Below the pieces are notes generated by a model. That model worked only from the letters and a program-made list of their open reading frames with translations. It was not told the DNA's origin and ran no database searches. Shown here piece by piece: positions 559-32,409 of a stretch of 64,000 nt of DNA. Source of the stretch: Naegleria gruberi (taxonomy: Eukaryota); the NCBI GenBank assembly GCA_000004985.1, contig GG738847.1, one strand, 5' to 3'. Both the position numbers and the translations under genes were made by a program. The first letter of the stretch is position 1. Each line of letters opens with the position of its first letter.

Positions 559-1059
559 CTAAATCAAGATACGTACCTCTATTCTCGGTTCTATTTCAAC
601 TGTGGCCATTTCTTGTAAGTGCACTAATAAGAGAATTGATTTTTGATTGTTAACCATATCCTCAAGCAATTTTTTAGCAGTACAATTATCCCACCAACTT
701 GCTAGTGTTTCTCCAGGTGTAGCATTTTGAGACTTTGTTTTGAAAAACAGGTTTGGTGAAATTGACTTTATACCTTGTCGTATTTTTTCATTCTTGTTAC
801 AAACGAAAATACCAGTAAGGCCATTTTTGTTTTTGTTTAAACAAATGACATCTGGATGACAATATCTCGAAGGATAATAGTACAGTCCATGAATTAAATG
901 AGATAAGGTTTGTTCACCAACACAATGGAAGTACAAAAGATCTCCCAATAAGCACTCCACAACATGTTTGTATCGTTCCAGTAAGGGAATCGCCCATTTT
1001 GATTGTCTATATTTACGTAAAAAATCATAGCAGGTCATTGATGGATTTTCTAATGACAA
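559..1059 (-). CDS. Possible 3' exon of the 1050-3059 NTPase gene. A roughly 38-nt intron with GTATTG donor and TTAG acceptor would join the frames. Otherwise a separate small ORF.
   Basis: The ORF abuts the upstream gene in a different frame. A candidate splice, gctcag|GTATTG...cattag|AAAATCC, keeps the frame open into LENPSMTCYDF. Confidence 0.3.
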   Translation of the reverse strand: MSLENPSMTCYDFLRKYRQSKWAIPLLERYKHVVECLLGDLLYFHCVGEQTLSHLIHGLYYYPSRYCHPDVICLNKNKNGLTGIFVCNKNEKIRQGIKSISPNLFFKTKSQNATPGETLASWWDNCTAKKLLEDMVNNQKSILLLVHLQEMATVEIEPRIEVRILI

Positions 1060-3059
1060 TCTAATTCACAAACAGGTCTTGCAATACCTGAGCCAGTAAG
1101 CATAGAAGAAATTGTAAGGTCACATTTGATTAGTTTTCCTGCAAAAATAGGGTAATCATGTTTTACTAGGGCTTCAAGTAAAAATGCAGCATCTATCGTG
1201 TCCTTTGAGGTTTTTGTTGTGAATCCTTCACTGACTAGCGAGGAAAGTGTTTGGGTAAAAGTTCTCCAAGCTAGTTTGAAAGCATTTTCAACATTTTCTA
1301 AAATTAATGAAGGATTGGCAATTATCATTCCAATAACTCTTCTTCTTGTTGGAAACATGGCAAATAATTTGACTTTGAGTAGGTTTTTGGAGACTTTTTG
1401 CTTTTTTAAAATCTCTCTGATATTGTAAAAAGGTTCTAGCATTTGGAGAGCTTGATCAAATGATACAAGATCAAGGCCAATAGAGTATTTCATGTTTCTT
1501 TCCGTGAGTTTGCAAACAGAGGATTGAATAATGTCTACAACATCCGAAGTAAAAAAAGTTCCACAATACATATCTGATATAGTTAGATTCTTCTCAATCA
1601 TTTCAATTTGTAAACTACTAATCTCTGAAGCAATAGCTGTTAATAAATCTCTTGGTGTTCCTTGTGCAGATAACATGACTGTTGAACTTTTTGAAAAAAT
1701 GGATGCTTCATCAACAGCAATTACAAAAGGTATATCATGCGATAATTCTAATTTCGTATAAAGATCAACAATAAGATTTACAGTAATCTTCCTTAATGAG
1801 TTAATCGGGAGGTATTGCCATCCTTGTTCTATCATGTCTTTGAAAATAGATGTTGCCATATTGGTATTACCATTCCATTGTATATATGAAATTAATTGTA
1901 ATGGGGTTTCAAAATAATCCAACAGAGTTTGATTTTCCAAACATGCCTGTGAAACAAGTAATCTAGCAATAAAGTTACATTCGATTAATTGTCTAACAGA
2001 TGCATATAATTCAATATTAGACAATTTTTCACAATGCATAAATAGTGCTAATGATGCGTAATCTATTCCTCTTCCATTTAATACGCTAGCATCCAAAGAA
2101 GAAGTGCATGTGATAAATAGTCCTGGATTAACTCCTAATCTTCTTGCAATTAGCGCTGTTTTACCCAAACCTGATGGTCCAATAATCACAACTGTAGATC
2201 CTGAGTTAATATTTTGATTAAGTGTTTCTCTTTCCTCTGTTGAAAACAAATCCACTTGAAACTTTGGAAGAAATGGTAAAATATCTTTAGCTAATTGGTT
2301 TTTAGAGTCAACTGGTACAATGACATTACCACGTACTAAGTCACTGTTATCATGTTCATTAAATATTTTTTTAAATTGGACGAACTTAATTTCTTTCAGA
2401 GTTCCTAAAGTGTTTAAGTCAGTACCCTTTAAAAATTTTAACTTTTGCATGTCAACTTCTTTGGGAGGTGTAAAGAAGTCTAAGGCATCATCCATAAGCA
2501 AATCTAATTGGTTTTTAAAGCTTATTTTCTTGGTATATGTCTCTCCTTGTTGTTCAGCACCTGCAACCACACATTTAGCAAAATTTAAATACCACTGTTG
2601 TTTGGATTGATCAAGATTAAGATTTCGAGCTTCAATATCGATACAACCATTCAAAATGTTGTCTGCTTTAATCATCGTCAATCTTTCATCTGCACTATAA
2701 GATAAAAACTCAGTAAAATATTTGTTTGGAAATAGTTGAAACGAGACTGAATAATTAATTGATAACAAATTTTCAATACAAGCCGAAATGGAATCTTCCT
2801 CTTCTAAAAGAAAAGGATAATTAGAACGAATATACTCTTTTCTTTCTTCCCTTTTCAATTTGGCGACATATAAGAATGCTGAGGGAAAAAAAGATGTGGC
2901 AAACCATTGTTCTGCCTTAGTGAGCGGTAGATTAGCACCATGTTCCGAAATAATAAGAGAAAAAAATTGATTTTTTTTCCACTTTGAAACTCCACCACGC
3001 TTATGAACTAAAGTTGCACCGCACATGCATGCACCCTGATCAGCTGAGGATTGAAACAT
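1050..3059 (-). CDS. P-loop NTPase of unknown family, 669 aa. Walker A is GPSGLGKT and Walker B-like is VIAVDEAS. Possibly STAND/NACHT-like.
   Basis: Long uninterrupted ORF. Motif VVIIGPSGLGKTALIARRL followed later by hhhhDEA. Paralogous to the + strand fragment at 3316-4127. Confidence 0.7.
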   Translation of the reverse strand: MFQSSADQGACMCGATLVHKRGGVSKWKKNQFFSLIISEHGANLPLTKAEQWFATSFFPSAFLYVAKLKREERKEYIRSNYPFLLEEEDSISACIENLLSINYSVSFQLFPNKYFTEFLSYSADERLTMIKADNILNGCIDIEARNLNLDQSKQQWYLNFAKCVVAGAEQQGETYTKKISFKNQLDLLMDDALDFFTPPKEVDMQKLKFLKGTDLNTLGTLKEIKFVQFKKIFNEHDNSDLVRGNVIVPVDSKNQLAKDILPFLPKFQVDLFSTEERETLNQNINSGSTVVIIGPSGLGKTALIARRLGVNPGLFITCTSSLDASVLNGRGIDYASLALFMHCEKLSNIELYASVRQLIECNFIARLLVSQACLENQTLLDYFETPLQLISYIQWNGNTNMATSIFKDMIEQGWQYLPINSLRKITVNLIVDLYTKLELSHDIPFVIAVDEASIFSKSSTVMLSAQGTPRDLLTAIASEISSLQIEMIEKNLTISDMYCGTFFTSDVVDIIQSSVCKLTERNMKYSIGLDLVSFDQALQMLEPFYNIREILKKQKVSKNLLKVKLFAMFPTRRRVIGMIIANPSLILENVENAFKLAWRTFTQTLSSLVSEGFTTKTSKDTIDAAFLLEALVKHDYPIFAGKLIKCDLTISSMLTGSGIARPVCELDCH

Positions 3060-5652: not shown

Positions 5653-7560
5653 CTATTTATTGGAAGAGTTTACTAAGGCTCTCCTTGAGAAGCTTGTTAG
5701 TTTTCTCCACTTTTTATCATAGCCACCACATACGACCATCAAGTGCTCGCTCCAACTTCCAAATTCGTACACACTTTCTTCATCAGTGGATGGTAGGCAA
5801 CTTCTTGGATATTGAACTACATCCATGCATAGAATTCTATCTCCCACAGAGGATTGAGAAATTGGTTTGAAAGATATTGGATCCCAAAATCTAACAACTC
5901 CATCAAAACCACTGGAAATTATTGATCTACCGCATGATGGCTCATACATGATAGTATTCATCAGTTTACCACTTGCTGGTATAGAGTAAACTGGATCTTG
6001 TTTAAATTGTTCAGGATTGGAATCTGTTTGTTTGGCAGCAATGGTTTGACTAATATTTCTTAAATCCCAAACGTTAATCAAACCATCCACACCACCAGTA
6101 ACCAAATTAATACCATTGTATGGATTGAATGAGCAATTGAGTACCTCCTTGACATGGTGAACAAGGTTGGCCACCAACAAGCCAGTTCTTAAATCCCATA
6201 ATTTGACAATACCATTCATATCAGTTGTACACAATAATCCTCCATCAGGATGATGGTCTACACCATAAACTGGAGAATAGTGACCTTCCTGTGAATAGAG
6301 TAATTCGTTTCTCGATAAATCCCACATACACCAAGTTTGGTCAGAACTTGTACTGATGAATTGTTGGCCACTTGGATGAATGGACAATCTATTGATTACT
6401 GATGTATGTGCATTTCCAGCAGTGACAATTTCTCTCGAATTGATATCCTCATTGTTTTCTGATGTTCCATTAAATATTTGTACAGGTTTGTCAGTATCCT
6501 CAGCTTCCAAATTCCAAAGCTTAATAGTTCTGTCAGCAGAAGAACTCAACACATACTCATTTCTCACTTGTAGACATGTAATTCTCTCGTCATGAGCATT
6601 TGAGAAACTTCTCAATTGAGTACAGGAGAAGGATTCGTCTTCATTCATAACTTCTGGTTTTGTTGATACTTCCTCACTCTCGTCAATCATATTGTCTTCT
6701 TCCTTGAAACATGGATTGGCAACCTGCCAAACTTTCATGTCACCTGACCATCCTGATGAAATACATTTTCCAAAATCGTGTCCCAGAAATTTGATTTGTG
6801 AAATCGGCCTAGAATCACCAGTAATCGAAGAAACCAGTGATAAATTTTGTTGTAAATTCTTTACAAATCTATTCTTTCTCTCCACTAAATGTGCTGCAAG
6901 ACCTTGTTTAATAGTTGGTTCTCCCAATTTATCCTTCTTTACAATTTCTACATATTCTCTAATGCTCTCCAATCTTTGATGTGATGATTGCAGAGAGTGC
7001 ATTGCAATTTGTTCACGAACCTCTGCCAAATGTGGATTTGTACTTTGGAAAGTAAAATATTGTTTTGATAAATCCTCTTCTTCTTCTTCTTCCTCTACTG
7101 TTGCTTCCTCTTCATCATCTTGCATTTGCTCCACTAAATCTTGTCTTCCACTTTGTATTAATTCCTTCCTAAAATCAGCCATAATAACTGATTGTTCCGA
7201 GACTGATCTCGTCGATGCTGATGATGCTGATGATGGTTGTTCTACATCTTCCGATTCTCTAAGCTTTTGAATGGCTATCATTCTCTTCAGACGTTCTCTT
7301 CTCTCGGACGAACCTTCTCCAAACAAGGTCATTGGCTCTCCCATCTCTCTCAACTTTAACCTCACATCTAAATCGATGGTGGGTATTTTGAATTGTGTAT
7401 TAAAATTTGGTGAGAGGAGGATGAGTTGAATTTTTTGTTCATCTGGAAGGTGAGAAGCGTCAGACAACATTTTTTTTCTTTTAATTTTTCTAATATTTAT
7501 TTCCTCATTGAACCAGTTGACATTATTATTTGTGAATCTTGTTGTGTAAGATGGTTGCAA
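5653..7560 (-). CDS. PRPF4: U4/U6 small nuclear ribonucleoprotein Prp4 (WD40). The true start is probably the internal Met ([12 protein letters not shown]).
   Basis: PRP4-type Prp3-binding motif [31 protein letters not shown], then [11 protein letters not shown]...[12 protein letters not shown] and seven WD repeats with W-D dipeptides. Strong similarity to metazoan PRPF4. Confidence 0.85.
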
Positions 7561-7789: not shown

Positions 7790-9298
7790 TTACTTATTAG
7801 CAGTGACAGCACCAGTCAAGGCAATCATTGGATAGATACCAAGTACTGCAATAACAATGACCAATACACCAATAATAGCTACGGTGGCAGGATTGAGGAT
7901 TTTCAACAAGGTCTGAAGTCTTTGGGTATACTCTTTCAAAACCATTTGAGAAACATACTTCAAACCATCCTGAATGATAACATGTTTTCCACTCATAAAA
8001 CAAGCTTGAAGATAGGCTATTTCATAAGGTGAAAATATATGCTTTTGCTTTAACATGTAAGCTAAAACTTCATCTGCACCAGCTCCATATTTTGCCAAGC
8101 TGGCCATACTTTCCACCATGTGTTGAAGAATTGGGTTGGAACTGATGTTTGAGCAGACAATTAAGAGCTTGGAAGTGATTTGTTCCTTATCGAGTAATGA
8201 TAATGTATGCAAGAGCGTGGCCTTATCTTGTAAGAATGTTAAATTTCCAATAGGGGTGTGCATTCGAATGTATTGCCATTTCAAGAATGATTTGAAAGGT
8301 AAATACTCTGATGATATTGTTGAAGGAATAATATAAATAAGAGCCAACCAATGGTATTGAATAGATCTTACGAGATAATTTGTAAATTGTAAAAAGGATG
8401 GGACTGTAAGACCCATACTTTCAAAAATACCAATATTCTGTGGTAAAATCTTGGTCAATAACATTGTAATACCCAATAGACCAATTACTGTCATTATTGC
8501 AGGATAAATTAAAGCTCCAGTAATGGCTTTCTGGACCTTAATTTCCCTAGCAAATCTCTGTGCACAGTATAAGAGAATAGAGTCGAAATTTGAAAGGGCC
8601 TTTGCAAGAACTAGAGAATTATAATACCAACTGGGCAGATACATTTGTACTTTTGACAGTGTTGCAATAAATGTCTTGTAGTCAGTGCCACCAAGTGCAC
8701 TCTTTGGAATTTTAACTTGAGCAAGGAAGGGCAATAAATCTGAATCCAATTTTGAACTTCTCAACATGATATCGAAAATACTGACACTATTCACTGAGGG
8801 AGGAATTGAATTTACCAGAAATAGAATATTATTAAATGCTTGGAGTGAATCTGTAGAAAGTGAGCTGTTGCCTTGAAAGCTCCTGATCAGTTTGTTCAAC
8901 AAACCTGGATGAGAAGTTGGATCGGATTTTGATTTATCTGACGACATCTTTTTCTTTCCAGCAGTAATAGGCTTTGCTTCTGTCTTTCCTGCTGTTTGTG
9001 AATGTTCAATCCATTGTTGTTTCTCGAAAATTGCAATATTTTCCTCTGCAATTACATATTGATCATGATCCGAAACAAATCCTTGCACACCTTTCAATAA
9101 TAAATTATTATTCAATAAATATTGTAATATTAATTTTAGGCTTTTTGTTTTTTGCTTGTTATTTTCGTTCATTGTTTGTCCACTTGTTTGTCCATGTTGT
9201 TTATTGTCATCATCACATTGAATTGTTGTTGTATTGTTTTTCGGAAATAAATGGTCTGCAATTCTATCCATTCGGGAAATGTGTTGTGGTGACAACAT
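7790..9298 (-). CDS. gspF: GspF/PilC/TadB-family type II secretion system platform protein homolog, 502 aa. Two T2SSF-like domains, three predicted TM helices, and an N-terminal extension of about 140 aa with a possible mitochondrial targeting sequence. Candidate mitochondrial T2SS (miT2SS) GspF.
   Basis: Domain 1: ...FNNILFLVNSIPP...LAKALSNFDSILLYCAQRFAREIKVQKAITGALIYPAIMTVIGLLGITMLLTKILPQNIGIFESMGLTVPSF. This parallels the bacterial GspF pattern LERLADY...R.K...A..YP.vvl.va.gvv.lLf.fV.P.F..iF...g..LP..T. Domain 2: GKHVIIQDGLKYVSQMVLKEYTQRLQTLLKILNPATVAIIGVLVIVIAVLGIYPMIALTG, which parallels GE.sG.L...L...A......ef......l.....PllVv.maavVlfIvlAil.Pi. The N-terminus MLSPQHISRMDRIADHLF is basic and hydroxylated. 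Host-like AT content; sits between intron-containing eukaryotic genes. Confidence 0.8.
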   Translation of the reverse strand: MLSPQHISRMDRIADHLFPKNNTTTIQCDDDNKQHGQTSGQTMNENNKQKTKSLKLILQYLLNNNLLLKGVQGFVSDHDQYVIAEENIAIFEKQQWIEHSQTAGKTEAKPITAGKKKMSSDKSKSDPTSHPGLLNKLIRSFQGNSSLSTDSLQAFNNILFLVNSIPPSVNSVSIFDIMLRSSKLDSDLLPFLAQVKIPKSALGGTDYKTFIATLSKVQMYLPSWYYNSLVLAKALSNFDSILLYCAQRFAREIKVQKAITGALIYPAIMTVIGLLGITMLLTKILPQNIGIFESMGLTVPSFLQFTNYLVRSIQYHWLALIYIIPSTISSEYLPFKSFLKWQYIRMHTPIGNLTFLQDKATLLHTLSLLDKEQITSKLLIVCSNISSNPILQHMVESMASLAKYGAGADEVLAYMLKQKHIFSPYEIAYLQACFMSGKHVIIQDGLKYVSQMVLKEYTQRLQTLLKILNPATVAIIGVLVIVIAVLGIYPMIALTGAVTANK

Positions 9299-9645: not shown

Positions 9646-10317
9646 ATGAACAACAAACTCACTCTATTCACTTTCATACTTTTGCTCGTTATTCTCTTCT
9701 TGATAAACTTATCTGAACAATCCATATATTTACCAGGTGGTAAAGCAATTGAAACAGACAAGACAAAGATCAAAGAATTGATGGAATTCATGACTGTTAA
9801 ATTGATGGAAACTCCATATCAAGCAAAGATTCATGAAATTATTAAGGTTGAAAGACAAATTGTAAATGGTGTAAATTATTATATCACAATGCACGTTATT
9901 TCGAATGAAAAGATTAAACAATTGGTTGAAGCTAAGGTATTTGAACCAATGCATCACGTCCATGCTTTTGAATTGGTTTCTATTGACAAGAAGGATTCTA
10001 TCAAGTCCATATCAAACCAAGCATTAGAATCAATTCCAGGAGGAAGAAATAAGGAAACCGACTACTTGAAGATTACTGAATTGGTTAACTTTTTACAACA
10101 AAAACTCATTGAATCTGAAAATCAATCTGTTATTAGAAAGGTTATTTCCATTGAAAAGCAAGTCGTTGCTGGTATTAATTATTTCCTTGATGTGCATTTG
10201 GAATTTGCTGATGGAAAGGTCAAATTAATGCAAGCAACAATTCATGAACCACCAATCTTTGCTGGAAGTTCTTCATTGCACTTGAAATCACTCATTGAAA
10301 TTAATGGCAAAGAATAA
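9646..10317 (+). CDS. Secreted tandem (two-domain) cystatin-family cysteine-protease inhibitor.
   Basis: N-terminal signal peptide MNNKLTLFTFILLLVILFLINLS. Two repeats, each with the N-terminal Gly motif (LPGG / IPGG) and the QxVxG motif (RQIVNGVNYYI; KQVVAGINYFL). Confidence 0.8.
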   Translation: MNNKLTLFTFILLLVILFLINLSEQSIYLPGGKAIETDKTKIKELMEFMTVKLMETPYQAKIHEIIKVERQIVNGVNYYITMHVISNEKIKQLVEAKVFEPMHHVHAFELVSIDKKDSIKSISNQALESIPGGRNKETDYLKITELVNFLQQKLIESENQSVIRKVISIEKQVVAGINYFLDVHLEFADGKVKLMQATIHEPPIFAGSSSLHLKSLIEINGKE

Positions 10318-14781: not shown

Positions 14782-16203
14782 TTACTTTTTCTTATCAGAT
14801 TTCTTTTCCTTCTTTTCAGATTTCTTGTCAGATTTCTTTTCTTCAGACTTCTTTTCAGATTTCTTTTCTTCCTTCTTTTTATCGTCCTTCTTTTCAGATT
14901 TCTTTTCTGATTTCTTTTCTTCCTTCTTTTCGTCTTTTTTATGTTCTGATTTCTTTTCTTCCTTCTTTTCAGATTTCTTTTCGAGCTTATCAGACTTCTT
15001 CTCTTCCTTCTTTTCTACTTTCTTTTCATCCTTCTTCTCGTGTTTCTTTTCAGATTTCTTTTCTTCAGATTTCTTTTCAGATTTTTTCTCTACCTTTTCT
15101 TCTTTCTTTTCGGATTTCTTTTCTTCCTTTTTATGTTCAGATTTCTTGTCTTCTTTCTTTTTATCGTCCTTCTTTTCAGATTTCTTTTCTTCCTTCTTTC
15201 TATCGTCCTTCTTTTCAGATTTCTTTTCATGCTTATCAGACTTCTTTTCTTCCTTCTTTTCAGATTTCTTTTCAGATTTCTTTTCACTCTTCTTATGTGA
15301 TTTAGATACGTCTACAGACTTGTCAGACCAACCATCAGGTTTGAAAATGTTTTGAGAAATTTTAACAGAGAATTCTTCTCTTTCTTGGATTCTAGATTTC
15401 TTTTCTTCGAGTTTTTTTTGTTTTTCCTTCAAGGCATCATATTTTGGCATATCAAGCTTTTGTTCAATTCTATAGAATCCATCAATTGTTGAATTTCTCA
15501 GTCTATGGTCGTCGCTATCCTTAGTTGTAAATAATGGAGCAATAGATCCCTTAACACTATCTTCCCTAGAGAAAGCAAGTCCAGTATTTGAATCCAGCAT
15601 ATATTCATCTTGTTCTCCAAGAGATGAAATTCCTTCCAATTTCTTCTTAACTTCATCAACAGAAAATCCTTTTGGTATTTCAATAACATAAATTTTGCTA
15701 TTTTGTACATCTTCATATGTTATCTTTGGATCTTGTGGAGCATAGGTCATATTTGTTGGTAAAGTGAAGGTAAATTCAGAGTCTTCAATCATTGGCTCTT
15801 CAACAACAGGTTCAGGCTTTTCATCATCAGACATGTGTGTATCTTCTTGGACTTCATTGTCACTTTCATTATCAGATTCTTTTTTCTTTGTTTCTTCTTC
15901 ATCATCGGATTTGGAACTCTTTTTAGACTTTTTCTTCTTTGGTTCTTCATCTTCATTATCACTATCGGAAGACTTCTTTTTATCCTTCTTCTTTTCCTTC
16001 TTTTCCTTCTTTTCTTTCTTTTCCTTTTTCTCCTTTTTCTCCTTCTTTTCCTTCTTCTCCTTCTTATCCTTCTTTTTCTTTTCGGATTTCTTTGGAGATT
16101 CCTCTTTGGTTTCTTCCTCTGATTCCTCTATTGTTGTTGTTTTTGTTGTTGTTTCCTCTGCAGAGTCATCGTCGAGAAGTACTTGATGTTTTCTTTTGCT
16201 CAT
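14782..16203 (-). CDS. Lys/Glu-rich low-complexity protein with KKSEKKEEKK/KKEKKEKK tandem repeats around a unique central segment. Possibly nucleolar or chromatin-associated.
   Basis: Of the overlapping ORFs, only the 473-aa minus-strand ORF has a non-repetitive middle: ...TFTLPTNMTYAPQDPKITYEDVQNSKIYVIEIPKGF...GSIAPLFTTKD.... The plus-strand ORFs are pure F/S/L low-complexity mirror artefacts. Confidence 0.6.
   Translation of the reverse strand: MSKRKHQVLLDDDSAEETTTKTTTIEESEEETKEESPKKSEKKKKDKKEKKEKKEKKEKKEKKEKKEKKEKKKDKKKSSDSDNEDEEPKKKKSKKSSKSDDEEETKKKESDNESDNEVQEDTHMSDDEKPEPVVEEPMIEDSEFTFTLPTNMTYAPQDPKITYEDVQNSKIYVIEIPKGFSVDEVKKKLEGISSLGEQDEYMLDSNTGLAFSREDSVKGSIAPLFTTKDSDDHRLRNSTIDGFYRIEQKLDMPKYDALKEKQKKLEEKKSRIQEREEFSVKISQNIFKPDGWSDKSVDVSKSHKKSEKKSEKKSEKKEEKKSDKHEKKSEKKDDRKKEEKKSEKKDDKKKEDKKSEHKKEEKKSEKKEEKVEKKSEKKSEEKKSEKKHEKKDEKKVEKKEEKKSDKLEKKSEKKEEKKSEHKKDEKKEEKKSEKKSEKKDDKKKEEKKSEKKSEEKKSDKKSEKKEKKSDKKK
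14790..16100. repeat. Coding microsatellite-like tandem repeats (imperfect units of 15-30 nt; minus-strand sense aaraagraa...) that encode the K/E repeats.
   Basis: Visible periodic ttcttttcagatttcttttc / ccttcttttccttctt runs on the + strand. Confidence 0.7.
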
Positions 16204-16970: not shown

Positions 16971-18056
16971 TTATCTTCTATATTGATTTTGAGGAAATTG
17001 TTGTTGAGGTGGAGGTTGTTGGTAGTTTTGTTGGAAGTTCTGTTGTTGATTAGGGAAATTGTTTGGTTGTTGCATAAATGATTGATTAGCTCCAAAGGTC
17101 ATTCCTTGTTGTGGAAACATTGGCTGGTGGAATGAATTAAACATTGGCTGGTGCATGCCCATTTGCATATTTTGCATGTTTTGCATTGCTTGTAAGTGTT
17201 GTTGTCTCATATTATTTTGCATATTCATCATGTTGTGGTGCATAGATGCAAACGGATCGTTGAAGAATGGATCATTTCCGAATGGATTAGAGAATGGATC
17301 AGTGTTAAATGTTGGTCCTGAAGAGAATGGATTTTGCATTGGAGCAAATCCACCACCAAATCCAGAACTTGAACTAACGGTAGTAGTTGATGTTCCATTT
17401 CCATTTGAAGTTACAGTCTTTGAGCTTGTCATTGTTACAGGAATGTCACCAGAAGATCCAAGATTGACTGTTTTTGAGCTGGTACTTGTTGAAATTACTC
17501 TACCATCAGTTCCCAATACTTTCTTTGTAGTGGTCTTGGTTTGAGTTTGTGGTTGACCTGATTTGGCGTCGTTAATGATTGTCTTAGTGGATCTAACATA
17601 TCTATTTCCACTTTCGTCCTCTCCTTCACTATCTTCATGTTCTATTTCCTCCTCAACGAGAAATGAATTTGGATTTCTCATCATTATATTTCCTTGCTGT
17701 TGTTGTTGTTGATAATTTCTCATTTCGTGATGGGGTGTTTTATGTACAAAATCTTGTTGGTCTTCCATGACTTCTTCTCCATCTGATAATTCTTCAAATT
17801 GTAAATTTGTATTACCATTAGATGAGGAGGCTCCTTCGTTTAGTCCGTGAACGTTTGTTCTGTTATGGTGATGATCATCTTGCTCTATAATTGTAAAATT
17901 ACTGCCATGTTGTTGTTGTTGTTGTTGTTGTATGGTTGGTTGTTGTTGTTGTTGATCGGAGGAGGAGTAATAGTAGGCTTCCTGTGGCTGATGATCGGAA
18001 ACATCTTGAAAGGCTTCCTGCACAGTTTTCATCTTTTTGTTTCCTCTTCCATCCAT
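16971..18056 (-). CDS. Q/N-rich low-complexity protein with clustered DPF and NPF motifs near the C-terminus (possible endocytic accessory protein).
   Basis: PolyQ tracts (QQQQQPTIQQQQQQQ) and ...NTDPFSNPFGNDPFFNDPFASM.... DPF/NPF motifs are classical AP-2 and EH-domain ligands. No globular domain recognised. Confidence 0.55.
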   Translation of the reverse strand: MDGRGNKKMKTVQEAFQDVSDHQPQEAYYYSSSDQQQQQPTIQQQQQQQHGSNFTIIEQDDHHHNRTNVHGLNEGASSSNGNTNLQFEELSDGEEVMEDQQDFVHKTPHHEMRNYQQQQQQGNIMMRNPNSFLVEEEIEHEDSEGEDESGNRYVRSTKTIINDAKSGQPQTQTKTTTKKVLGTDGRVISTSTSSKTVNLGSSGDIPVTMTSSKTVTSNGNGTSTTTVSSSSGFGGGFAPMQNPFSSGPTFNTDPFSNPFGNDPFFNDPFASMHHNMMNMQNNMRQQHLQAMQNMQNMQMGMHQPMFNSFHQPMFPQQGMTFGANQSFMQQPNNFPNQQQNFQQNYQQPPPQQQFPQNQYRR

Positions 18057-18353: not shown

Positions 18354-19817
18354 TTGCATTATCAAAGATTGTCATTGACTCATGATGATGAGAATCTCTT
18401 CTCGTACGATTCATTAATTGTGCAGAGCTCTAAATGTTTGATGGTGGTCATATCTCGTTTTGAATCAAAACACTTACCAAACACAACAAAGAGTCTCAAA
18501 AAAAAGATGAATCAACAACAACAACCTTATCATTTGTATCTATTGAATCAAAAACCAAGAAAGAGTATTCTCAAGACTACTGCCTCACAAGTTGGTGCTC
18601 CAAAAGCTTCAAAGACTGCTACTTTTTTCAAAGAAGAGCAACGAAAGGAGCCAATTACAACTCTTCAAACAAAAACTCTTTCATTCGGAGCCAACAACAG
18701 TTCTCCTCCTCAACAAGAACAACAATCGGAATCTAGCAATATGAGCAAAAGCATTGGATTTTCATCACAAACTCCTGCTTTGAATGAGAATATTTCAAGT
18801 GGTAGTGTTTCCCAGTATTCATTAGCTTCAACCCAACAATTGGCACCATCGAAAACAATAGACTCTTCACCAACAACATTCTTTTACAAGCCATCACCGT
18901 CTTTACTCTTCCAATCTCTCATTTCTGACCTTCCATTGAAACCAGATGATGTTTCCAATCAAACAATAAGCAACAAGCCACTCGACTCCTTATCTTCCTT
19001 AATGGAAACTAATAATGGTCAATCGCTTTCCTCCAACAACAATATGAATCATCATTTAACTTTTAACACTCAATACTCCAATACAACTCTCCAAAATGAT
19101 TGCAACAATAATACAGATTCAACATGTCAACCTCTAGTATTTCAAAGAATGAACACAGTTTCATCTCTTCTCTCTCTTTTCCCTTCAATCCAAAAAGAAA
19201 CACAAGACACAAAAATGAGTCAACAACAAGTGGGCAGACATGTTGCTCCATCTTCTTCAGCAACAACCTCATCGGATAATCTTTCTCATCATTCGTTGAT
19301 TAATGGAGGTGTGGTAGGATTATCAAACCAATCTAACATGTTCAAAAAGGATTACTCTAAAGCTATAAGACAATTTCAAAATCAAACAACAAATCAATTT
19401 ATACAACGAACGATAGCCTCCAATCTAGATAATATTCAAAAGAATAGACCAAACATTGCTTCCGACAGATCCTTCCTTGAAGGCATGGAATTGGGAATGC
19501 AATTAAATGGTTTTTTGAATAAGCTTACACGTGATAGCAAGGACTACATCAAGGAATTACTCGATGACGTCTCCAGAAGAACAGCACAGGTTCCTCCAAC
19601 TACTATAGTGCACAATATTTCATCACCAACCATGCCAATCATTCCTACCACCACAACATCACCAATGCCAGTCACTTCACCAACCATTGATCCTTTCGTT
19701 CATTCCTCTGTGCAAAACATTATGCAAAAGGGTCAAGAACAAGCTTTCCAAACCCTCTTTGTTAGGAAATGTATGCAAGAGGCTGTTTCTAGAGCCATTC
19801 ACAACTCTCAACACTAA
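18354..19817 (+). CDS. S/T/N/Q-rich low-complexity protein of unknown function. The start is probably an internal Met (MNQQQQPYHLY...).
   Basis: Long open frame with host-like composition. Only the last roughly 120 aa look globular. Confidence 0.45.
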   Translation: MHYQRLSLTHDDENLFSYDSLIVQSSKCLMVVISRFESKHLPNTTKSLKKKMNQQQQPYHLYLLNQKPRKSILKTTASQVGAPKASKTATFFKEEQRKEPITTLQTKTLSFGANNSSPPQQEQQSESSNMSKSIGFSSQTPALNENISSGSVSQYSLASTQQLAPSKTIDSSPTTFFYKPSPSLLFQSLISDLPLKPDDVSNQTISNKPLDSLSSLMETNNGQSLSSNNNMNHHLTFNTQYSNTTLQNDCNNNTDSTCQPLVFQRMNTVSSLLSLFPSIQKETQDTKMSQQQVGRHVAPSSSATTSSDNLSHHSLINGGVVGLSNQSNMFKKDYSKAIRQFQNQTTNQFIQRTIASNLDNIQKNRPNIASDRSFLEGMELGMQLNGFLNKLTRDSKDYIKELLDDVSRRTAQVPPTTIVHNISSPTMPIIPTTTTSPMPVTSPTIDPFVHSSVQNIMQKGQEQAFQTLFVRKCMQEAVSRAIHNSQH

Positions 19818-22900: not shown

Positions 22901-25900
22901 AATAATATTATGCAAGAACTTTTGCAAACAGGTATCAAGAGTGCAAAATCTGAGAGATCATACCAAACACTCTATAATGATTTGAATAATCTTCACAAGT
23001 CCTGCTTTGCTCACTTGTCTCTCAATGATATTTATCACCAATTTTTGAAAAACTGCTGCCTCTCTGGTCATGCCAATTTGGCCTATGATTACATTGTTGC
23101 CAAGTGTATTCTTCCTTTTGATGAAGCTGATGATGTCATATTTGAGGCTACTTCTGAGCTTTTCAACAGTTCTGTGCAACCAACTGATTCTTCCATAATG
23201 ATTGCCGATAAGTGTATCTCACTACACCAAAGCTTACAAAATGAGAAGCACATTTCCCTCTCACAAGAACATAAGTGGAAGAGAGAAAAAGATGTATTGG
23301 CAGCTTTTAGAATGCTTGACAAAATTTATACCAACTATCCTCCAGCATTATTCTTGAAAAAGCATAGCCCTGTTGAAGTAATCAAATACCTAATTGAAAA
23401 TAATACAACAGGAACTGAGGAAGAAAGATTGAAAGAATTTTATGAAATTTCCAAGTTATTGGGTGGAACTGAGCATGATAAGAAGGAAATTAAAAAGTTG
23501 GCTATTGAATCATCTTTGGAGCAGGCTGGCTCAGGAAATATTTCAGTAATCAAGACCCTTATGGAGCAAAATCATACTGGAGTTTACAAAATCTGCTCCA
23601 AGATGAGTATCGACAGCATGTGTGAAATTTCACATGAAGACCGCTTGAAATTTGTAAGTTTTATTCATATATTTATTTAATTTACAATCGAATATAGGCC
23701 TCATTTGCTATCCAAAATTGTGATCCTTCAGAACTTTCTGAAATGATCTCTAACTATGAACTAATTGAATCACAAGAGCTTTTCTCCTCTCGCTCATCCA
23801 TTAAACCATTGACAGAGTGTGTACTTCTTGCCCATCAAGAATTTGAGAAACTGACCAAGACTACCCCATTCAATGCAAACTTTGTAGGTTCATCTCCAAT
23901 TTATTCTAGCAGTTCGGAAGTATCATTCCTCTCCAAGTTTGGCATTTCTTCCAGCTCGTTAGAAATTGAACACCTTCTCAAATTGAAGGCTTCACATATT
24001 AGAAATTGTATAGCTACAGGTACTGATATTTCTCTAGAGTCACTCCTTGAATTTGCAAGCTTGACCCTACTGAATGGTCATATCATTTCATTTGTTTCTA
24101 TACTAATTCAAGTACCTATTGAACAAATTGACCAGGTCAAAAGGTTATTTGACTCTATTCTTTCTTCTCAACCTCGTGAAACCAAGTCAAGCATTGTTGA
24201 AAGAATGCTCAGGGTGTTTAACTTTTACTTTGGACTAAGACTTTTGTTATTGGAAAACCCAGATGGATTGGCTGACTATTATGACGAGCTCAGCATTGAA
24301 GAAACTATTGAAAAGGCTTTAGAATCTGATTTGAAAACCGAATTCAGCTCAATTGTAGATATTTTAACTCTTTATAACGGATTGTTGTACATATGTAGTC
24401 ATTTCAATGAGCTTTCTACTTTATCCAACAACAAGTTGAGCTGTTTGAAATTTATAACCGAGGAGGATTATAGAATCAAGTCTCTTACCTTACTCTCTCA
24501 AACAAGCAACAAGGATCACCTACAAACTGTATTACAAGTGGCCGATAAGTTAAAATTAGGAAAGGATGAATTTTACCTTTGCTACCTGGAAGCAGTCTTG
24601 AAAAATAAGGTCATTTCTCAAGAAGACAAAACTTTCATATTTGAGTTTGTTTCAAACATTAACCGTGAGAAGGTAACCAGCTTATTATTACAATTTATGG
24701 AACCTTCACTTGCCAAAGAGTATGACCTCACAAAGCTTTCCTTCTTGATGGACGTTCTTTTATCGTTAGGAGATGACCAATTCAGAGATCAGAAACTTGT
24801 TCTAGACACCCTCTGTAAAGAATGCAAGGGAATTACCAATAAGGAGTATCACGGAATTCTCAACTCTACTTCTCCAGATTCCCTATTTGACCTTTTACGT
24901 CCATACATTAATCACCAAAATGTAAATACCATATTGGATAGTGTTGAGAAAGTAGTTAAGAATAACGTAGAAAGACCAAGATTTTACCTTTTCATCACTG
25001 AATCATTGTTGACAAGTAACAGCATTGACAATAAGGAAAAACCAACACTGGCAGAAGAGTACATTTGCAAGTTGACCGAGAGTGATATTAGATCTATAGT
25101 AGAAAAGCTTTCATTTAACAATAGTTACAAACTTCCTCATGCTATTCGTATTTCAATCATGAAGAACTCCCTCAATGTTATAACTAATTCTGAGCTCGAA
25201 CATTTTGTTAGAGGCAATATTTTCAGAATGTTGGCAGCCAAGAGAGTATTCCAAAGAGAGGAATTGGATAATTTACTCGGATTATTGGACAAGTATTTTA
25301 AAAACCAAGTTGGATTGACTAGAGTACTTGCCAATATTGCCCTCTGTACTCGAAGCAAAGATATGGTAGAATCAGTTCTTACCGATCTTAAAGAAGAATA
25401 CTCTGATATCTTCTCTGAAAGTAAGACTCCTGGTGAACAACCTTCGTTCCTTTCTACTGACTCCACTAAATCCTATCTGGAAATAGTTGACCAAGTCATT
25501 CAATGCCTAGTGGATCATGCTGAAGAGCTCAGCAATGAAACTGAGACCAATGATGAGGAAGACTTTACACAAGAAGAGCTCGAGAATTTAACATATGAAG
25601 AGGATGGCATATGTTGGCCTCCAAACAATGCTAAGCTTGGATGCACTTACTTGCATATTATTTTGGGCTCTATTAAGGATCTCTCAGACTTGTTCAATAC
25701 CATCCTCTCACATATTGAGCATACCACTAAGAAGGAAGATGACTTCCCTGTAAGAACTAGAATTGCTCTCATTAGAATTATTAGAAAATATAAGAAACCA
25801 CAAACTCCTTCACCTGAAATCAAACAAGAACAAATTGTAATTCAAAAAGAAGATTCTCCAATCATTGGTGAAGTACAAGAACCTAAAGTAGAAACACCTT

Positions 25901-26766
25901 CAACATTAGCTGATCAAGATGAAGACATTCTGTTGGCCATCTATCAGACCAAGGATGCCATTGGTGAAAACTTCCCATTACAAAAGGATGTTTATGCACA
26001 AACACCAAAACCACCAACTGATGAATTCAAAAACATGTTCTCTTCCCTTTTATCATCTACCTCAAATGAAAAACAATTCAAGGCACTTTCATTTATCTTG
26101 AGAATATGGTTCAAGGAGAAGAGACAATGTCAATCATTTTTAGAAGCACTTCTAGTTGACCTTCTTAACACTCTTGTAGATAGAAATGCTAAGGAAGAAA
26201 CAGTGTTGGATATTACTAGAGAGGAAGTCGAACTTTTGAACGAAACGATTGCTAATGATTTCTTTGAAAAGCTATTCAATAAGGGAAGTTATTTCCTCTC
26301 TTTCAAGTTTGCTCTCCAAACTAACCACAAGAATCTTGCTACAAATGTTGTAGAAAAACTCAAATCTCTTGCAGAATCGAACTCAGATTGCTTGGATACA
26401 GAATATATGGGAGTGATCTTTGATGAGTGCATTTCAAAGAATTTAATTTCAAAGCTTTTATCAGACCCTATTATTACCTTACTTTTCAATTGTAAAAAGT
26501 TGAAGTTATCTGAAAATAGTGAAGCTCATTTGATTTCAGAATTGGCACAAAGTGGGCTTAAGAAAAAGGCCACCAATAACCAAACACTATTAGCATGTGA
26601 GTATTTACAAAGAAAGGTGTATGGTATGCACTCTAGATTATGTGATTTGAACAGTGGTCTATTCTTACTGCGAAGATATTTACAACAATGCCAAACTCAT
26701 GTCAAAATTGATAGAAATGCAAAGGAGCAGTGCAGCAGTACATTGAAGAAGCTTGTTACAAAATAA
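19938..26766 (+). CDS. Large four-exon gene encoding about 2,230 aa. Exons: 19938-20581, 20625-22808, 22852-23653 and 23698-26766, with introns of 43, 43 and 44 nt. Tentatively an NBAS/Sec39-like (NRZ tethering complex) protein.
   Basis: Three consecutive plus-strand ORFs are separated by short gaps. Each gap begins GTAAG(A/T) and ends TAG, and the splice restores the frame: ...NSE-R-YDILF; ...ILSK-H-NLSIQL; ...RLKF|ASFAIQN. The N-terminal beta-rich region, the alpha-solenoid remainder and the size fit NBAS. Identity is not verified. Confidence 0.6.
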
Positions 26767-31800: not shown

Positions 31801-32409
31801 TTAAAAGTTAAGAAAATGAGAGAGGATGGTCTTTTAGATTATGATATTGACGAATTTGATCAATTTTGCTTATTTTCTGATTATTACATCTCTGGAAGAG
31901 TATTTCCATCCTCTTCCTTCCTAAGCAAACTGTTGTCTCAATCATTTCACAATAGAAAGATAGTTGACCTAATTGAGCAATTGTGTTCAGATGAATTTAC
32001 ATCAGGCGATCATCAATCTGTTGTAATTGAAGTTCCTCTTCCTTCAGTATTTGTTGGTAAATCAGTTCTCCAATTAGTAACATCGTGCTATCAACACAAT
32101 TTGATATTATTAGCTTTGAGTCGAGTCAAAACAAACAATCCATCCGATAGATACGTTTACACAAATCCTTCGCTCTCTAAAACACTTGTACAAACCGATC
32201 TAGTATTTCTGTGTGGACACAGAAACAATATCAAGAGTCTTGTTGCAACAAGAGGATCTATGGATCGCTTCTTTACAAGATCTTGGACAAGTAATAATCT
32301 ATTCTCATCACCCATTTCTGATAGCTCAGACGATGAAGGTAATGATAATATTCAAGTAGAACGATTCAAATCTGAACAAGAGATAACAATTCAACAGGAA
32401 GAAGTTTGA
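28828..32409 (+). CDS. Slo/BK-type (large-conductance, Ca-activated-like) voltage-gated K+ channel alpha subunit, paralog A. Six exons: 28828-29273, 29319-29691, 29736-29979, 30038-30179, 30246-31699 and 31745-32409.
   Basis: TM segments; S4-like LRVFRLLRLIP; pore helix and selectivity filter TLVTIGYGDI; S6; then a long cytosolic tandem RCK-like region (...DHLIILGDFSQPAIVCALSRS..., ...LLALSRVK...). Every intron begins GTAAGT or GTAGGT, ends AG, and restores homology with paralog B. Intron 5 (31700-31744) is in frame and stop-free, so the ORF track reads through it. Confidence 0.85.

What the first reader, a model, noticed from the sequence alone, without database searches (positions are those of the whole stretch)
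7790..9298. Nuclear-encoded homolog of bacterial T2SS/T4P platform protein GspF (candidate mitochondrial T2SS component)
The 502-aa product of the minus-strand gene carries two tandem T2SSF-type domains, each followed by TM helices. These have the family's characteristic spacing and residues: A-x-x-YP followed by a hydrophobic helix, then P-x-x-x-x-F, in domain 1; GE/GK-x-x-x-L ... L ... P followed by a C-terminal TM helix in domain 2. This is the GspF/PilC/TadB inner-membrane platform of bacterial type II secretion and type IV pilus machines. Here it sits in a eukaryotic chromosome, between an intron-free Prp4 gene and a secreted cystatin gene, with host-like AT-rich codon usage. It carries a eukaryote-specific N-terminal extension of about 140 aa that starts with a basic, hydroxylated, acid-free stretch typical of mitochondrial presequences. 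A T2SS-derived mitochondrial system (miT2SS: GspD/E/F/G) has been reported in only a few protist lineages (heteroloboseans, jakobids, malawimonads, hemimastigotes), and its function is unknown. This locus is a clear GspF member. No partner gene (GspD secretin, GspE ATPase, GspG pseudopilin) lies within 64 kb, so the system is dispersed rather than operonic.
Basis: partly seen in the sequence, partly recalled or inferred. Interest (0 to 1): 0.9.

Follow-up and report, generated by a model that had tools for sequence, protein, structure and literature searches.

The report
Naegleria's known mitochondrial GspF gene
This is the already published Naegleria gruberi nuclear gene for GspF, the inner-membrane platform of the mitochondrial remnant of a bacterial type II secretion system; the only new point is that its N-terminus carries a short peroxisome-signal-like (PTS2-like) motif, shared with five other families of the same system, that I could not find described.

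Summary
Window 7790-9298 (minus strand) is one uninterrupted 502-aa ORF. Each half passes Pfam T2SSF on its own, and NCBIfam's best model is T2SS GspF. The gene has the codon usage of its neighbours and lies between Prp4 and a two-domain cystatin. No GspD, GspE or GspG gene lies in the 64 kb.

It is not new. The first 399 residues match, letter for letter, XP_002682534.1, the N. gruberi NEG-M GspF of Horváthová et al. 2021 (PMC8134430). That paper found the protein in the mitochondrial proteome and mapped the gene to nuclei by FISH.

- The N-terminus is not a typical presequence. It has D11 and D15, and the published predictors all score it negative.
- The lineage-specific extension is about 100-125 aa, not about 140.

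Two things seen beyond the finding:
- All 18 eukaryotic GspF in my alignment have lost the Glu of the conserved Glu-Pro pair in the third transmembrane segment (Asn469 here). They also lack the Glu of both G-E cytoplasmic motifs.
- Residues 9-17 (RMDRIADHL, then F-P) belong to a motif R-[LIVM]-x-x-[LIV]-x-x-[HQ]-[LIVMF]. It heads 56-60 of 63 GspE, GspEL, GspEN2A, GspEN2B, GspF and GspG proteins and 0 of 41 GspD-type proteins. It resembles PTS2, and the system co-occurs with Pex7 paralogues. I found no report of this.

The parts
7790..9298 (-). Complete single-exon CDS of N. gruberi GspF (502 aa plus stop at 7790-7792)
   Evidence: ORF. First 399 aa identical to the printed XP_002682534.1. Pfam T2SSF and NCBIfam GspF matches.
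8924..9298 (-). Lineage-specific N-terminal extension (residues 1-125). Not alignable between lineages except for the motif below.
   Evidence: Alignments A1 and A2. No Pfam hit. AF2 pLDDT mostly below 50.
9242..9274 (-). PTS2-like nonapeptide R9-M-D-R-I-A-D-H-L17 followed by F18-P19. It is predicted to be a short amphipathic helix.
   Evidence: Translation. R9 is the only invariant residue of the extension apart from M1 across 16 orthologues. Helix in the AF2 model with block pLDDT about 70. Hydrophobic moment 1.84 against a shuffle mean of 0.96. Motif statistics.
9110..9166 (-). Second helix in the extension (about residues 45-63, KSLKLILQYLLNNN...). Hydrophobic, and conserved only among Naegleria and Willaertia-type sequences. 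My guess is that this is the extra fourth TMD called by TMHMM.
   Evidence: AF2 helix with pLDDT 57-78. Alignment. TMHMM gives 4 TMDs for N. gruberi against 3 elsewhere.
8531..8923 (-). Conserved matrix-side region: remnant of the N-domain plus the first cytoplasmic-type domain (residues 126-256). The bacterial G-E motif reads A232-K233 here.
   Evidence: Alignments. Foldseek matches to the EpsF, OutF and PilC cytoplasmic domains with probability 0.99-1.00.
8441..8530 (-). TMS1 (residues 257-286) with the invariant Y265-P266 and P286
   Evidence: Hydropathy maximum 2.19. Invariant columns. Translation.
8315..8395 (-). Region homologous to bacterial TMS2 (residues 302-328). Only weakly hydrophobic.
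   Evidence: 19-residue hydropathy stays below 1.2. Helices in the AF2 model. Alignment to bacterial TMS2. Translation.
7829..8167 (-). Second T2SSF domain (Pfam match at residues 378-490), including G437-K438 in place of the bacterial G-E
7799..7915 (-). TMS3 (residues 462-500) with N469-P470 where bacterial GspF/PilC has Glu-Pro
   Evidence: Hydropathy maximum 2.83. Column composition: 8 of 8 bacterial sequences have E; the 18 eukaryotic ones have N (13), S (2), G, T or Q. Translation.

Best explanation
The locus is the Naegleria gruberi NEG-M nuclear gene for GspF (XP_002682534.1). GspF is the polytopic inner-membrane platform subunit of the mitochondrial T2SS-derived apparatus (miT2SS).

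Shown:
- The sequence is identical to the published protein.
- Both halves belong to the T2SSF family.
- The protein was detected in the mitochondria-enriched proteome, and the gene lies in the nucleus.
- For the Gefionella okellyi orthologue, two-hybrid assays show self-interaction and interaction with GspG1.

Inferred:
- The protein is imported with help from its N-terminal extension.
- It inserts into the inner membrane with the N-terminus and both T2SSF helical domains in the matrix (the equivalent of the bacterial cytoplasm) and the C-terminus in the intermembrane space.
- It oligomerises through TMS1 and TMS3.
- It docks the GspE ATPase hexamer on the matrix side.
- It couples ATP hydrolysis to extracting GspG subunits from the membrane and stacking them into a short pseudopilus, which pushes an unknown cargo through the GspD/GspDL pore in the outer membrane.

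The gene is intronless and stands alone. The other miT2SS genes lie elsewhere in the genome.
For: - Identity with XP_002682534.1 over all 399 printed residues.
- Pfam T2SSF: 47.5 bits for the whole protein, and 28.0 and 26.1 bits for the two halves, each above the 25.2 cutoff.
- NCBIfam: the best model is TIGR02120 GspF (1.9e-18, residues 226-496 against profile positions 130-399 of 401). It beats the XpsF, PilC, ComGB and HofC models, and it is the best-scoring listed model for the set of 16 eukaryotic orthologues, all of which match it.
- Fold: the AF2 model has pLDDT 81-93 over residues 220-500. Its only high-probability Foldseek matches are PilC (3jc8) and the EpsF, OutF and PilC cytoplasmic domains, with TM-score 0.6-0.72 normalised to the target.
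- Orthologues at 49-79% identity exist in N. fowleri, N. lovaniensis, Willaertia, Acrasis, Malawimonas and Andalucia. A gap then follows down to bacterial hits at E of about 1e-8.
- Codon usage matches the host, and the neighbours are eukaryotic genes on both sides.
- The N. fowleri and Willaertia orthologues are also single-exon genes set among ordinary eukaryotic genes.
- From PMC8134430: presence in the mitochondrial proteome ('M'), FISH to nuclei, GoGspF self-interaction and the GoGspF-GoGspG1 interaction.
Against: - No direct functional evidence exists for any miT2SS. The cargo is unknown, and GspF could not be expressed in yeast.
- Localisation of NgGspF rests on co-fractionation proteomics alone.
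- Residues that mark the bacterial family are changed in every eukaryotic orthologue in my alignment: the Glu of the TMS3 Glu-Pro pair (N469 here) and the Glu of both G-E motifs (K233 and K438).
- TMS2 is weakly hydrophobic.
[quoted passage not shown] The platform therefore cannot work exactly as it does in bacteria.
Confidence: 0.85

Rival explanations
1. The GspF-like protein is a repurposed relic. It is kept in mitochondria, or shuttles to peroxisomes, but no longer acts as a pilus-assembly platform or ion-conducting channel. It might, for example, serve as a scaffold in a different pathway linked to peroxisomes.
For: - The TMS3 Glu and both G-E glutamates are lost in all 18 eukaryotic orthologues in my alignment.
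- TMS2 is weak.
- GspC, L, M and O are missing.
- The system co-occurs with Pex7 paralogues and PTS1-bearing proteins. NgGspEL, Gcp2, Gcp9, Gcp10 and Gcp11 fell in the peroxisomal cluster.
- A PTS2-like motif sits on the protein.
Against: - Strong purifying selection: 49-79% identity across four deep lineages, with over 100 invariant columns.
- Strict co-occurrence with GspD, E and G, and the GoGspF-GoGspG1 interaction as in bacteria.
- Single E370C or Y168C substitutions left PulF functional, so losing the Glu need not abolish function.
Confidence: 0.12
2. The gene is a bacterial contaminant, a mis-assembly, or a recent lateral transfer unrelated to mitochondria.
For: The family is otherwise prokaryotic. 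The gene has no introns.
Against: - GC3 and RSCU match the neighbours.
- Eukaryotic genes lie within about 230-350 bp on both sides.
- Orthologues sit in eukaryotic contexts in N. fowleri (814-kb contig) and Willaertia.
- FISH places the gene in nuclei, and the eukaryotic sequences form a monophyletic clade.
- The closest bacterial proteins are only 18-21% identical in the alignment.
Confidence: 0.01
3. The protein derives from a type IV pilus (PilC) or Tad (TadB/C) platform rather than from a T2SS GspF.
For: The only full-length solved relative is PilC (3jc8). The PilC, ComGB and HofC models also match. The paper reports that inference of the bacterial donor is unstable.
Against: - TIGR02120 GspF scores 66.9 bits against 35.6 for the best PilC model. 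It is matched by all 16 eukaryotic orthologues and has the best E-value among the listed models.
- It has two T2SSF domains in one chain, unlike the split TadB and TadC.
- It co-occurs with a secretin and a GspG-type pseudopilin.
Confidence: 0.05

Closest known systems
Mitochondrial GspF of the miT2SS (Horváthová et al. 2021, Nat Commun 12:2947; N. gruberi XP_002682534.1)
   Same: It is this protein. The sequence is identical over all printed residues, from the same organism. The orthologues in N. fowleri, Andalucia, Malawimonas, Gefionella, Reclinomonas, Neovahlkampfia and Pharyngomonas share the core.
   Different: Nothing differs. My additions are the residue-level differences from bacteria and the shared N-terminal motif.
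Bacterial T2SS platform protein GspF (PulF, EpsF, OutF, XcpS; TIGR02120, Pfam PF00482)
   Same: - Two tandem T2SSF helical domains, each followed by a transmembrane segment.
- Tyr-Pro in TMS1 and an invariant Pro in TMS3.
- The same length of core, about 375-400 aa.
- Predicted helical-bundle domains that superpose on the EpsF and OutF crystal structures.
   Different: - About 18-21% identity in the alignment; 66.9 bits against an equivalog cutoff of 424.
- TMS3 Glu-Pro is Asn-Pro.
- Both G-E motifs are A/G-K.
- TMS2 is weakly hydrophobic.
- A 100-125-aa N-terminal extension carries a targeting-type motif.
- The gene is nuclear and not in an operon.
- The partners GspC, L and M are absent.
Type IV pilus platform PilC and competence pilus ComGB
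   Same: Same superfamily and fold. PilC (3jc8) is the best full-length structural match. According to PMC10790770, ComGB also lacks the TMS3 Glu and has Gln-Pro instead. Andalucia GspF likewise has Gln-Pro.
   Different: Lower profile scores than for GspF. The system context is T2SS-like: a secretin plus a GspG-type pseudopilin.
Peroxisomal targeting signal 2 (PTS2), read by Pex7
   Same: An N-terminal nonapeptide with R at position 1, an aliphatic residue at positions 2 and 5, H or Q at position 8 and L-type at position 9. Thirty of the 60 miT2SS instances meet the classic consensus (R/K)(L/V/I)x5(H/Q)(L/A) quoted in PMC3178647. The organisms concerned carry three extra Pex7 paralogues, Gcp1-3.
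   Different: - The window protein has Met at position 2, so it fails the classic consensus by one residue.
- The carrier proteins are mitochondrial, not peroxisomal, by proteomics, antibodies and heterologous expression.
- A Pro at +2 after the motif is frequent here and, to my knowledge, is not part of the PTS2 definition.
- No binding to Pex7 or Gcp1-3 has been tested.

Membership tests
GspF/PilC platform superfamily (Pfam PF00482 T2SSF) | Significant match to the T2SSF profile, present twice in one chain | tested here: met
   Whole protein 47.5 bits against a cutoff of 25.2. The halves score 28.0 bits (residues 213-286) and 26.1 bits (residues 378-490).
GspF/PilC platform superfamily (Pfam PF00482 T2SSF) | Three transmembrane segments: TMS1 after domain 1, TMS2 before domain 2, TMS3 at the C-terminus | tested here: met
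   TMS1 (257-286) and TMS3 (462-500) are strongly hydrophobic. The TMS2 homologue (302-328) is helical in the AF2 model but weakly hydrophobic. TMHMM in PMC8134430 gives 4 TMDs here and 3 in the orthologues. Orientation was not tested.
GspF/PilC platform superfamily (Pfam PF00482 T2SSF) | Conserved Tyr-Pro in TMS1 (PulF Y168-P169; PMC10790770) | tested here: met
   Y265-P266 is invariant in all 26 aligned sequences.
GspF/PilC platform superfamily (Pfam PF00482 T2SSF) | Conserved polar residue plus Pro in TMS3: Glu-Pro (PulF E370-P371), or Gln-Pro in ComGB | tested here: inconclusive
   The Pro (P470) is invariant. The preceding residue is Asn here; across the 18 eukaryotic sequences it is N (13), S (2), Q, T or G, and it is Glu in 8 of 8 bacterial sequences. 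It stays polar in most but is never acidic. Single E370C left PulF functional.
GspF/PilC platform superfamily (Pfam PF00482 T2SSF) | Helical-bundle fold of the cytoplasmic domains (EpsF 2VMA/2VMB/3C1Q, OutF 5NBG, PilC 2WHN) | tested here: met
   Foldseek probability 0.99-1.00, target-normalised TM-score 0.59-0.72, rmsd 3.2-4.8 Å. E-values are weak (0.2-0.5), and no unrelated family reaches a probability above 0.25.
T2SS GspF proper (NCBIfam TIGR02120, equivalog) | Score at or above the equivalog cutoff (424 bits) | tested here: not met
   66.9 bits. GspF is the best-matching model for this protein. All 16 eukaryotic orthologues match it, and it has the best E-value among the listed models, but the proteins are far too divergent to be called equivalogs. 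The eukaryotic clade is best filed as its own subfamily, mitochondrial GspF.
Mitochondrial GspF (miT2SS) clade | Orthology with the published eukaryotic GspF set | tested here: met
   Identical to the published N. gruberi member. 49-79% identical to the others, with E-values from 1e-230 to 1e-132.
Mitochondrial GspF (miT2SS) clade | Mitochondrial localisation | not testable with these tools
   PMC8134430 reports it in the mitochondrial proteome cluster. No microscopy exists for GspF, and expression in yeast failed.
Mitochondrial GspF (miT2SS) clade | Co-occurrence with GspD, GspE and GspG in the same genome | not testable with these tools
   Only 64 kb is available and none of them is in it. 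The paper lists NgGspD, E, G1 and G2 under other accessions, and G2 on a separate scaffold.
Canonical N-terminal mitochondrial presequence | Basic, acid-poor amphipathic N-terminus recognised by predictors | tested here: not met
   D11 and D15 fall within the first 20 residues: 3 K/R against 2 D/E. Published TargetP, TargetP2, MitoProt and MitoFates scores are all negative for this protein. Residues 8-18 are nonetheless amphipathic.
PTS2 (Pex7-dependent peroxisomal signal) | N-terminal (R/K)(L/V/I)x5(H/Q)(L/A) | tested here: not met
   RMDRIADHL has Met at position 2. The motif family to which it belongs meets the consensus in 30 of 60 instances. This is a resemblance, not a demonstrated membership.
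PTS2 (Pex7-dependent peroxisomal signal) | Binding to Pex7 and import into peroxisomes | not testable with these tools
   Heterologous NgGspE and NgGspG1, which carry the motif, went to mitochondria in yeast and T. brucei. That argues against a canonical PTS2 function.

The most novel reading that the evidence does not exclude
The conserved N-terminal nonapeptide R-[LIVM]-x-x-[LIV]-x-x-[HQ]-[LIVMF], often followed by x-P, is RMDRIADHL-FP in this gene. I propose that it is a dedicated, PTS2-derived sorting or assembly signal, shared by all matrix-side and inner-membrane miT2SS subunits (GspE, GspEL, GspEN2A, GspEN2B, GspF, GspG). It would be read by the Pex7-like WD40 proteins Gcp1-3, which co-occur with the system.

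This would give the three enigmatic Pex7 paralogues a ligand. It would explain why heterolobosean Gsp proteins lack predictable presequences. It would also tie the miT2SS mechanistically to peroxisome-type receptor biology.

I found no mention of such a motif in the main text or stored supplements of PMC8134430, in the 2023 review PMC10128026, or in full-text searches.
Probability: 0.35. Interest if true: 0.75.

Novelty: already known. Interest (0 to 1): 0.25.

Why it matters
The gene itself adds nothing new. It is the founding N. gruberi GspF of the published miT2SS, a system that matters because it suggests the mitochondrial ancestor kept a bacterial secretion machine into early eukaryote evolution.

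Two residue-level observations may be useful to people who work on it:
- Every mitochondrial GspF in my alignment has lost the acidic residue that lines the proposed ion channel of bacterial PulF, and has reversed the charge of both G-E motifs. This bears on whether the mitochondrial platform can use ion-motive force and on how it docks GspE.
- A PTS2-like motif heads six protein families of the system but none of the secretin-derived families. Together with the co-occurring Pex7 paralogues, this turns the vague 'peroxisome link' of the 2021 paper into a testable receptor-ligand hypothesis.

Tried and rejected
- Searching PDB sequences with the single protein gave only PilC at E = 0.25. The strong profile hit (1e-84) is inflated because profile A1 contains bacterial sequences, so I do not use it as independent evidence.
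- I looked for partner genes in the window in three ways. Pfam on all ORFs of at least 150 aa and tblastn with five N. gruberi Gsp proteins found nothing. Peptides from 12 ORFs without Pfam hits are absent from the paper's Gsp/Gcp list and from the stored part of its proteome table. Caveats: the proteome file is truncated and breaks sequences every 60 residues, and ORFs under 150 aa or split by introns were covered only by tblastn.
- Synteny: the N. fowleri and Willaertia GspF loci share no neighbours with the window and contain no Gsp gene.
- I asked whether the motif extends to the Gcp families. The counts of six common motif endings in the whole of Supplementary Data 1 equal those already seen in the Gsp section, apart from HLSP (one extra) and HILP (7 against 3; at least one extra is a GspDL C-terminus). 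It therefore seems confined to GspE, EL, EN2A, EN2B, F and G. This is an indirect count; parts 6-12 were not read.
- I considered the motif as merely part of an ordinary presequence or Tom20-binding element. This is not rejected and remains the main alternative.
- By mistake, alignment A1 and the AF2 model used window:7790-9295:-, which drops the start codon. Their numbering is therefore true numbering minus 1. A2 and all coordinates in this report use true numbering.
- Not run: the large representative-library search, a second structure prediction, and phylogeny. The paper already provides phylogenies, and the verdict would not change.
Full report
**1. What is at the coordinates**

Window 7790-9298 on the minus strand is one uninterrupted ORF. 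It starts with ATG and encodes 502 aa. An in-frame stop lies 7 codons upstream of the ATG.

The window is uniformly AT-rich, at 31-37% GC. The gene's GC3 (0.303) and its RSCU correlation with the pooled neighbouring genes (0.857) fall inside the range of 22 other long ORFs of the window: GC3 0.20-0.34 and r 0.61-0.96.

The flanking genes are eukaryotic:
- a Prp4-type WD40 splicing factor at 5653-7560 (-);
- a protein with two cystatin domains and a hydrophobic N-terminus at 9646-10317 (+);
- condensin subunit Cnd1 and an F-box/LRR_6 protein further out.

**2. Family assignment**

The whole protein scores 47.5 bits on Pfam T2SSF (cutoff 25.2), in two stretches. Scanned separately, residues 126-301 match at 213-286 (28.0 bits) and residues 302-502 match at 378-490 (26.1 bits). 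Residues 1-145 match nothing. The 'two tandem T2SSF domains' are therefore real.

NCBIfam's best model is TIGR02120 GspF (1.9e-18, residues 226-496 against profile positions 130-399 of 401). It scores ahead of XpsF, PilC, ComGB and HofC. All of these lie far below their equivalog cutoffs. All 16 eukaryotic orthologues match TIGR02120, which has the best E-value of the listed models.

An AF2 model built on a 26-sequence alignment has pLDDT 81-93 over residues 220-500 and is entirely helical. Its only high-probability Foldseek matches in the PDB are PilC (3jc8) and the crystal structures of the EpsF, OutF and PilC cytoplasmic domains. These have probability 0.99-1.00 and target-normalised TM-scores of 0.59-0.72, though the E-values are weak.

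Hydropathy shows strong segments at 257-286 and 462-500. The homologue of bacterial TMS2 (302-328) is weak.

**3. It is a published gene**

A homology search returned N. fowleri, N. lovaniensis, Willaertia magna, Acrasis kona, Malawimonas jakobiformis and Andalucia godoyi proteins. The Andalucia protein is annotated 'mitochondrial Type II secretion system F-like protein (GspF)'. After these there is a gap down to bacterial hits at E of about 1e-8.

Supplementary Data 1 and 2 of Horváthová et al. 2021 (PMC8134430) print the N. gruberi NEG-M GspF, XP_002682534.1. The first 399 residues printed there are identical to the window ORF.

The paper reports the following:
- The discovery began in the N. 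gruberi genome.
- FISH with an NgGspF probe labels two loci in nuclei.
- All the core N. gruberi Gsp proteins (GspD, E, F, G1, G2) fell in the mitochondrial cluster of a fractionation proteome. This protein is flagged 'M'.
- GspF could not be expressed in yeast.
- The Gefionella orthologue self-interacts and binds GspG1 in bacterial two-hybrid assays.

The window is thus N. gruberi nuclear DNA and the finding is already known.

**4.

- Partners: no GspD, E or G gene lies in the 64 kb. Pfam on all 37 ORFs of at least 150 aa shows no T2SSE, Secretin or T2SSG domain. tblastn with NgGspD, E, G1, G2 and EN2A gives nothing below E = 0.15. Peptides from 12 ORFs without Pfam hits are absent from the paper's Gsp/Gcp table.
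- Relatives: the N. fowleri and Willaertia orthologues are also single-exon genes among unrelated eukaryotic genes. They show no synteny with the window and have no Gsp neighbour. 'Dispersed, not operonic' holds.
- Presequence: this claim does not hold. Only residues 1-10 are acid-free, because D11 and D15 follow. The paper's own predictor columns are all negative for this protein, and it says that predictors fail on heterolobosean Gsp proteins.
- Extension length: it is about 100-125 aa. The conserved core begins at D126.
- Motif spacing: P286-x5-F292, not P-x4-F. The G437-K438 motif is separated from its Leu by a 3-residue insertion relative to bacteria.

**5. How it most likely works**

By homology with bacterial GspF, the N-terminus and both helical domains should face the matrix and the C-terminus the intermembrane space. 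TMS1 and TMS3 would mediate oligomerisation. The matrix domains would dock the GspE hexamer. The complex would drive GspG polymerisation towards the GspD/GspDL pore.

The steps that are shown are family membership, nuclear location, mitochondrial co-fractionation and, in Gefionella, the F-F and F-G1 interactions. Everything else is inference, and the cargo is unknown.

**6. Differences from the bacterial family**

Guilvout et al. 2023 (PMC10790770) propose that PulF trimers form an ion channel. Its constriction is made by Tyr-Pro in TMS1 (Y168) and Glu-Pro in TMS3 (E370). They describe these pairs as conserved across GspF/PilC, with Gln-Pro in ComGB.

In my alignment:
- Y265-P266 and P470 are invariant.
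- The residue before P470 is Glu in 8 of 8 bacterial sequences. It is never Glu in the 18 eukaryotic ones: N in 13, S in 2, and G, T and Q once each. It is N469 here.
- The Glu of the G-E motif in both cytoplasmic domains is Lys or Arg in every eukaryotic sequence (K233 and K438 here).

Single E370C or Y168C PulF variants were functional. These changes therefore do not prove loss of function. They do argue that the mitochondrial platform differs in any ion-coupling step and in its electrostatic interface.

**7. Shared N-terminal motif**

Within the otherwise unalignable extension, R9 is the only invariant residue apart from M1 across 16 orthologues. The consensus reads RRxxxLxxHLFP.

I transcribed the N-terminal 130 residues of the proteins listed in parts 1-5 of Supplementary Data 1 and added database orthologues. 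The pattern R[LIVM]..[LIV]..[HQ][LIVMF] occurs as follows:

| Family | With motif | Sequences |
|---|---|---|
| GspE | 8 | 8 |
| GspF | 12 | 12 |
| GspG | 14-15 | 16 |
| GspEL | 9-10 | 10 |
| GspEN2A | 8-10 | 10 |
| GspEN2B | 5 | 7 |
| GspD, GspDL, GspDN1-3 | 0 | 41 |

The higher figure in each range allows A or T at position 2 and T at position 5. The total for the first six families is 56-60 of 63, against about 0.7 expected from shuffles. The sequences come from heteroloboseans, jakobids, malawimonads and hemimastigotes.

In the window's own ORFs the pattern occurs twice in 17,608 residues, and one of the two is GspF.

Across the 60 instances:
- position 1 is always R;
- position 2 is L, I, V or M in 57;
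- position 5 is L, I or V in 59;
- position 8 is H (47) or Q (13);
- position 9 is L, I, V, M or F in all 60.

A Pro two residues after the motif is common (visible in the hit list). In the AF2 model the motif is a short helix in a disordered region, and it is amphipathic.

These are the defined positions of PTS2, whose classic consensus is (R/K)(L/V/I)x5(H/Q)(L/A), with RLQVVLGHL as the example (PMC3178647). Thirty of the 60 instances meet that consensus exactly. The window protein misses it by having Met at position 2.

The 2021 paper found that three proteins co-occurring with the system, Gcp1-3, are paralogues of Pex7, the PTS2 receptor, and that these species also keep Pex7 itself. The paper mentions PTS2 only once, in that context. 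Neither it, nor its stored supplements, nor the 2023 review, nor full-text searches mention such a motif on Gsp proteins. The library does not hold subscription-only papers, so I cannot exclude prior description.

Evidence against a canonical peroxisomal role: NgGspE and NgGspG1, both of which carry the motif, went to mitochondria in yeast, and the first 160 residues of NgGspG1 targeted a reporter to T. brucei mitochondria. Both hosts lack Gcp1-3 and, to my knowledge, have Pex7.

One point fits a peroxisome link: NgGspEL, whose motif RLTSLLSHL is a perfect PTS2, is flagged 'P' (peroxisomal cluster).

The main alternative is that the motif is the conserved core of an unusual presequence, that is, an amphipathic Tom20-type element. 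I rate the dedicated 'PTS2-like signal read by Gcp1-3' reading at about 0.35.

**8. Verdict**

Novelty: already known. Interest in the finding as submitted is low. The motif and the residue substitutions are modest but testable additions.

Noticed in passing
window 9242-9274 (-); also the N-termini of the GspE, GspEL, GspEN2A, GspEN2B, GspF and GspG proteins in Supplementary Data 1 of PMC8134430: A PTS2-like nonapeptide, R-[LIVM]-x-x-[LIV]-x-x-[HQ]-[LIVMF], often followed by x-P, heads 56-60 of 63 proteins from six miT2SS families in four eukaryotic lineages. None of 41 GspD, GspDL or GspDN1-3 proteins has it. About 0.7 instances are expected by chance. The system co-occurs with three Pex7 paralogues (Gcp1-3). 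I found no description of this in the papers searched.
   Followed up: partly
window 7892-7897 (-) = N469-P470; window 8600-8602 (-) = K233; window 7985-7987 (-) = K438: All 18 eukaryotic GspF sequences in my alignment lack the Glu of the TMS3 Glu-Pro pair that lines the proposed PulF ion channel (N, S, Q, T or G instead). In both G-E motifs of the cytoplasmic domains the Glu is replaced by Lys or Arg. All 8 bacterial sequences in the alignment keep Glu at all three sites.
   Followed up: partly
Supplementary Data 1 of PMC8134430: In Neovahlkampfia damariscottae, GspG1 and GspEL are both listed on contig NODE_35 (132 kb), and GspDL and GspDN3 are both on NODE_36 (129 kb). Some miT2SS genes may therefore be loosely linked in that species, unlike in N. 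gruberi. Separately, most GspDN2 proteins have positive PTS1-predictor scores, with C-termini such as SRL, ANL, PRL and PRM.
   Followed up: no
window 30289-32409 (+) and 35128-36861 (+): Two nearby ORFs both carry BK-channel alpha and Slo-like RCK domains. They may be tandem paralogues of a calcium-activated potassium channel. ORF 36882-37613 just downstream has a chance-level match to the loose motif at residue 65 (RIVDIVDQL).
   Followed up: no
window 56116-57255 (-), 49524-51386 (-), 39761-40378 (+): Other recognisable genes in the window: mitochondrial-type elongation factor Ts; a sulfite-oxidase-like protein (cytochrome b5 plus Mo-co domains); and a nucleoside-diphosphate kinase fused to a Dpy-30 motif. 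None is related to the miT2SS.
   Followed up: no
window 1050-3059 (-), 14782-16203 (-), 16971-18056 (-), 18354-19817 (+), 23743-26766 (+), 37624-39609 (-), 52414-54039 (+): Seven long ORFs (361-1007 aa) have no Pfam match at E <= 0.001. Test peptides from them are absent from the paper's Gsp/Gcp list and from the stored part of its mitochondrial proteome table.
   Followed up: partly
protein P0001: A JGI metagenome contig of 2.5 kb encodes a GspF that is 92% identical to the window protein over the conserved core, but its N-terminal extension is different and shorter. It keeps a motif that meets the PTS2 consensus (RLHRLANHL-FP). It probably comes from an unsequenced close relative of N. gruberi.
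   Followed up: no
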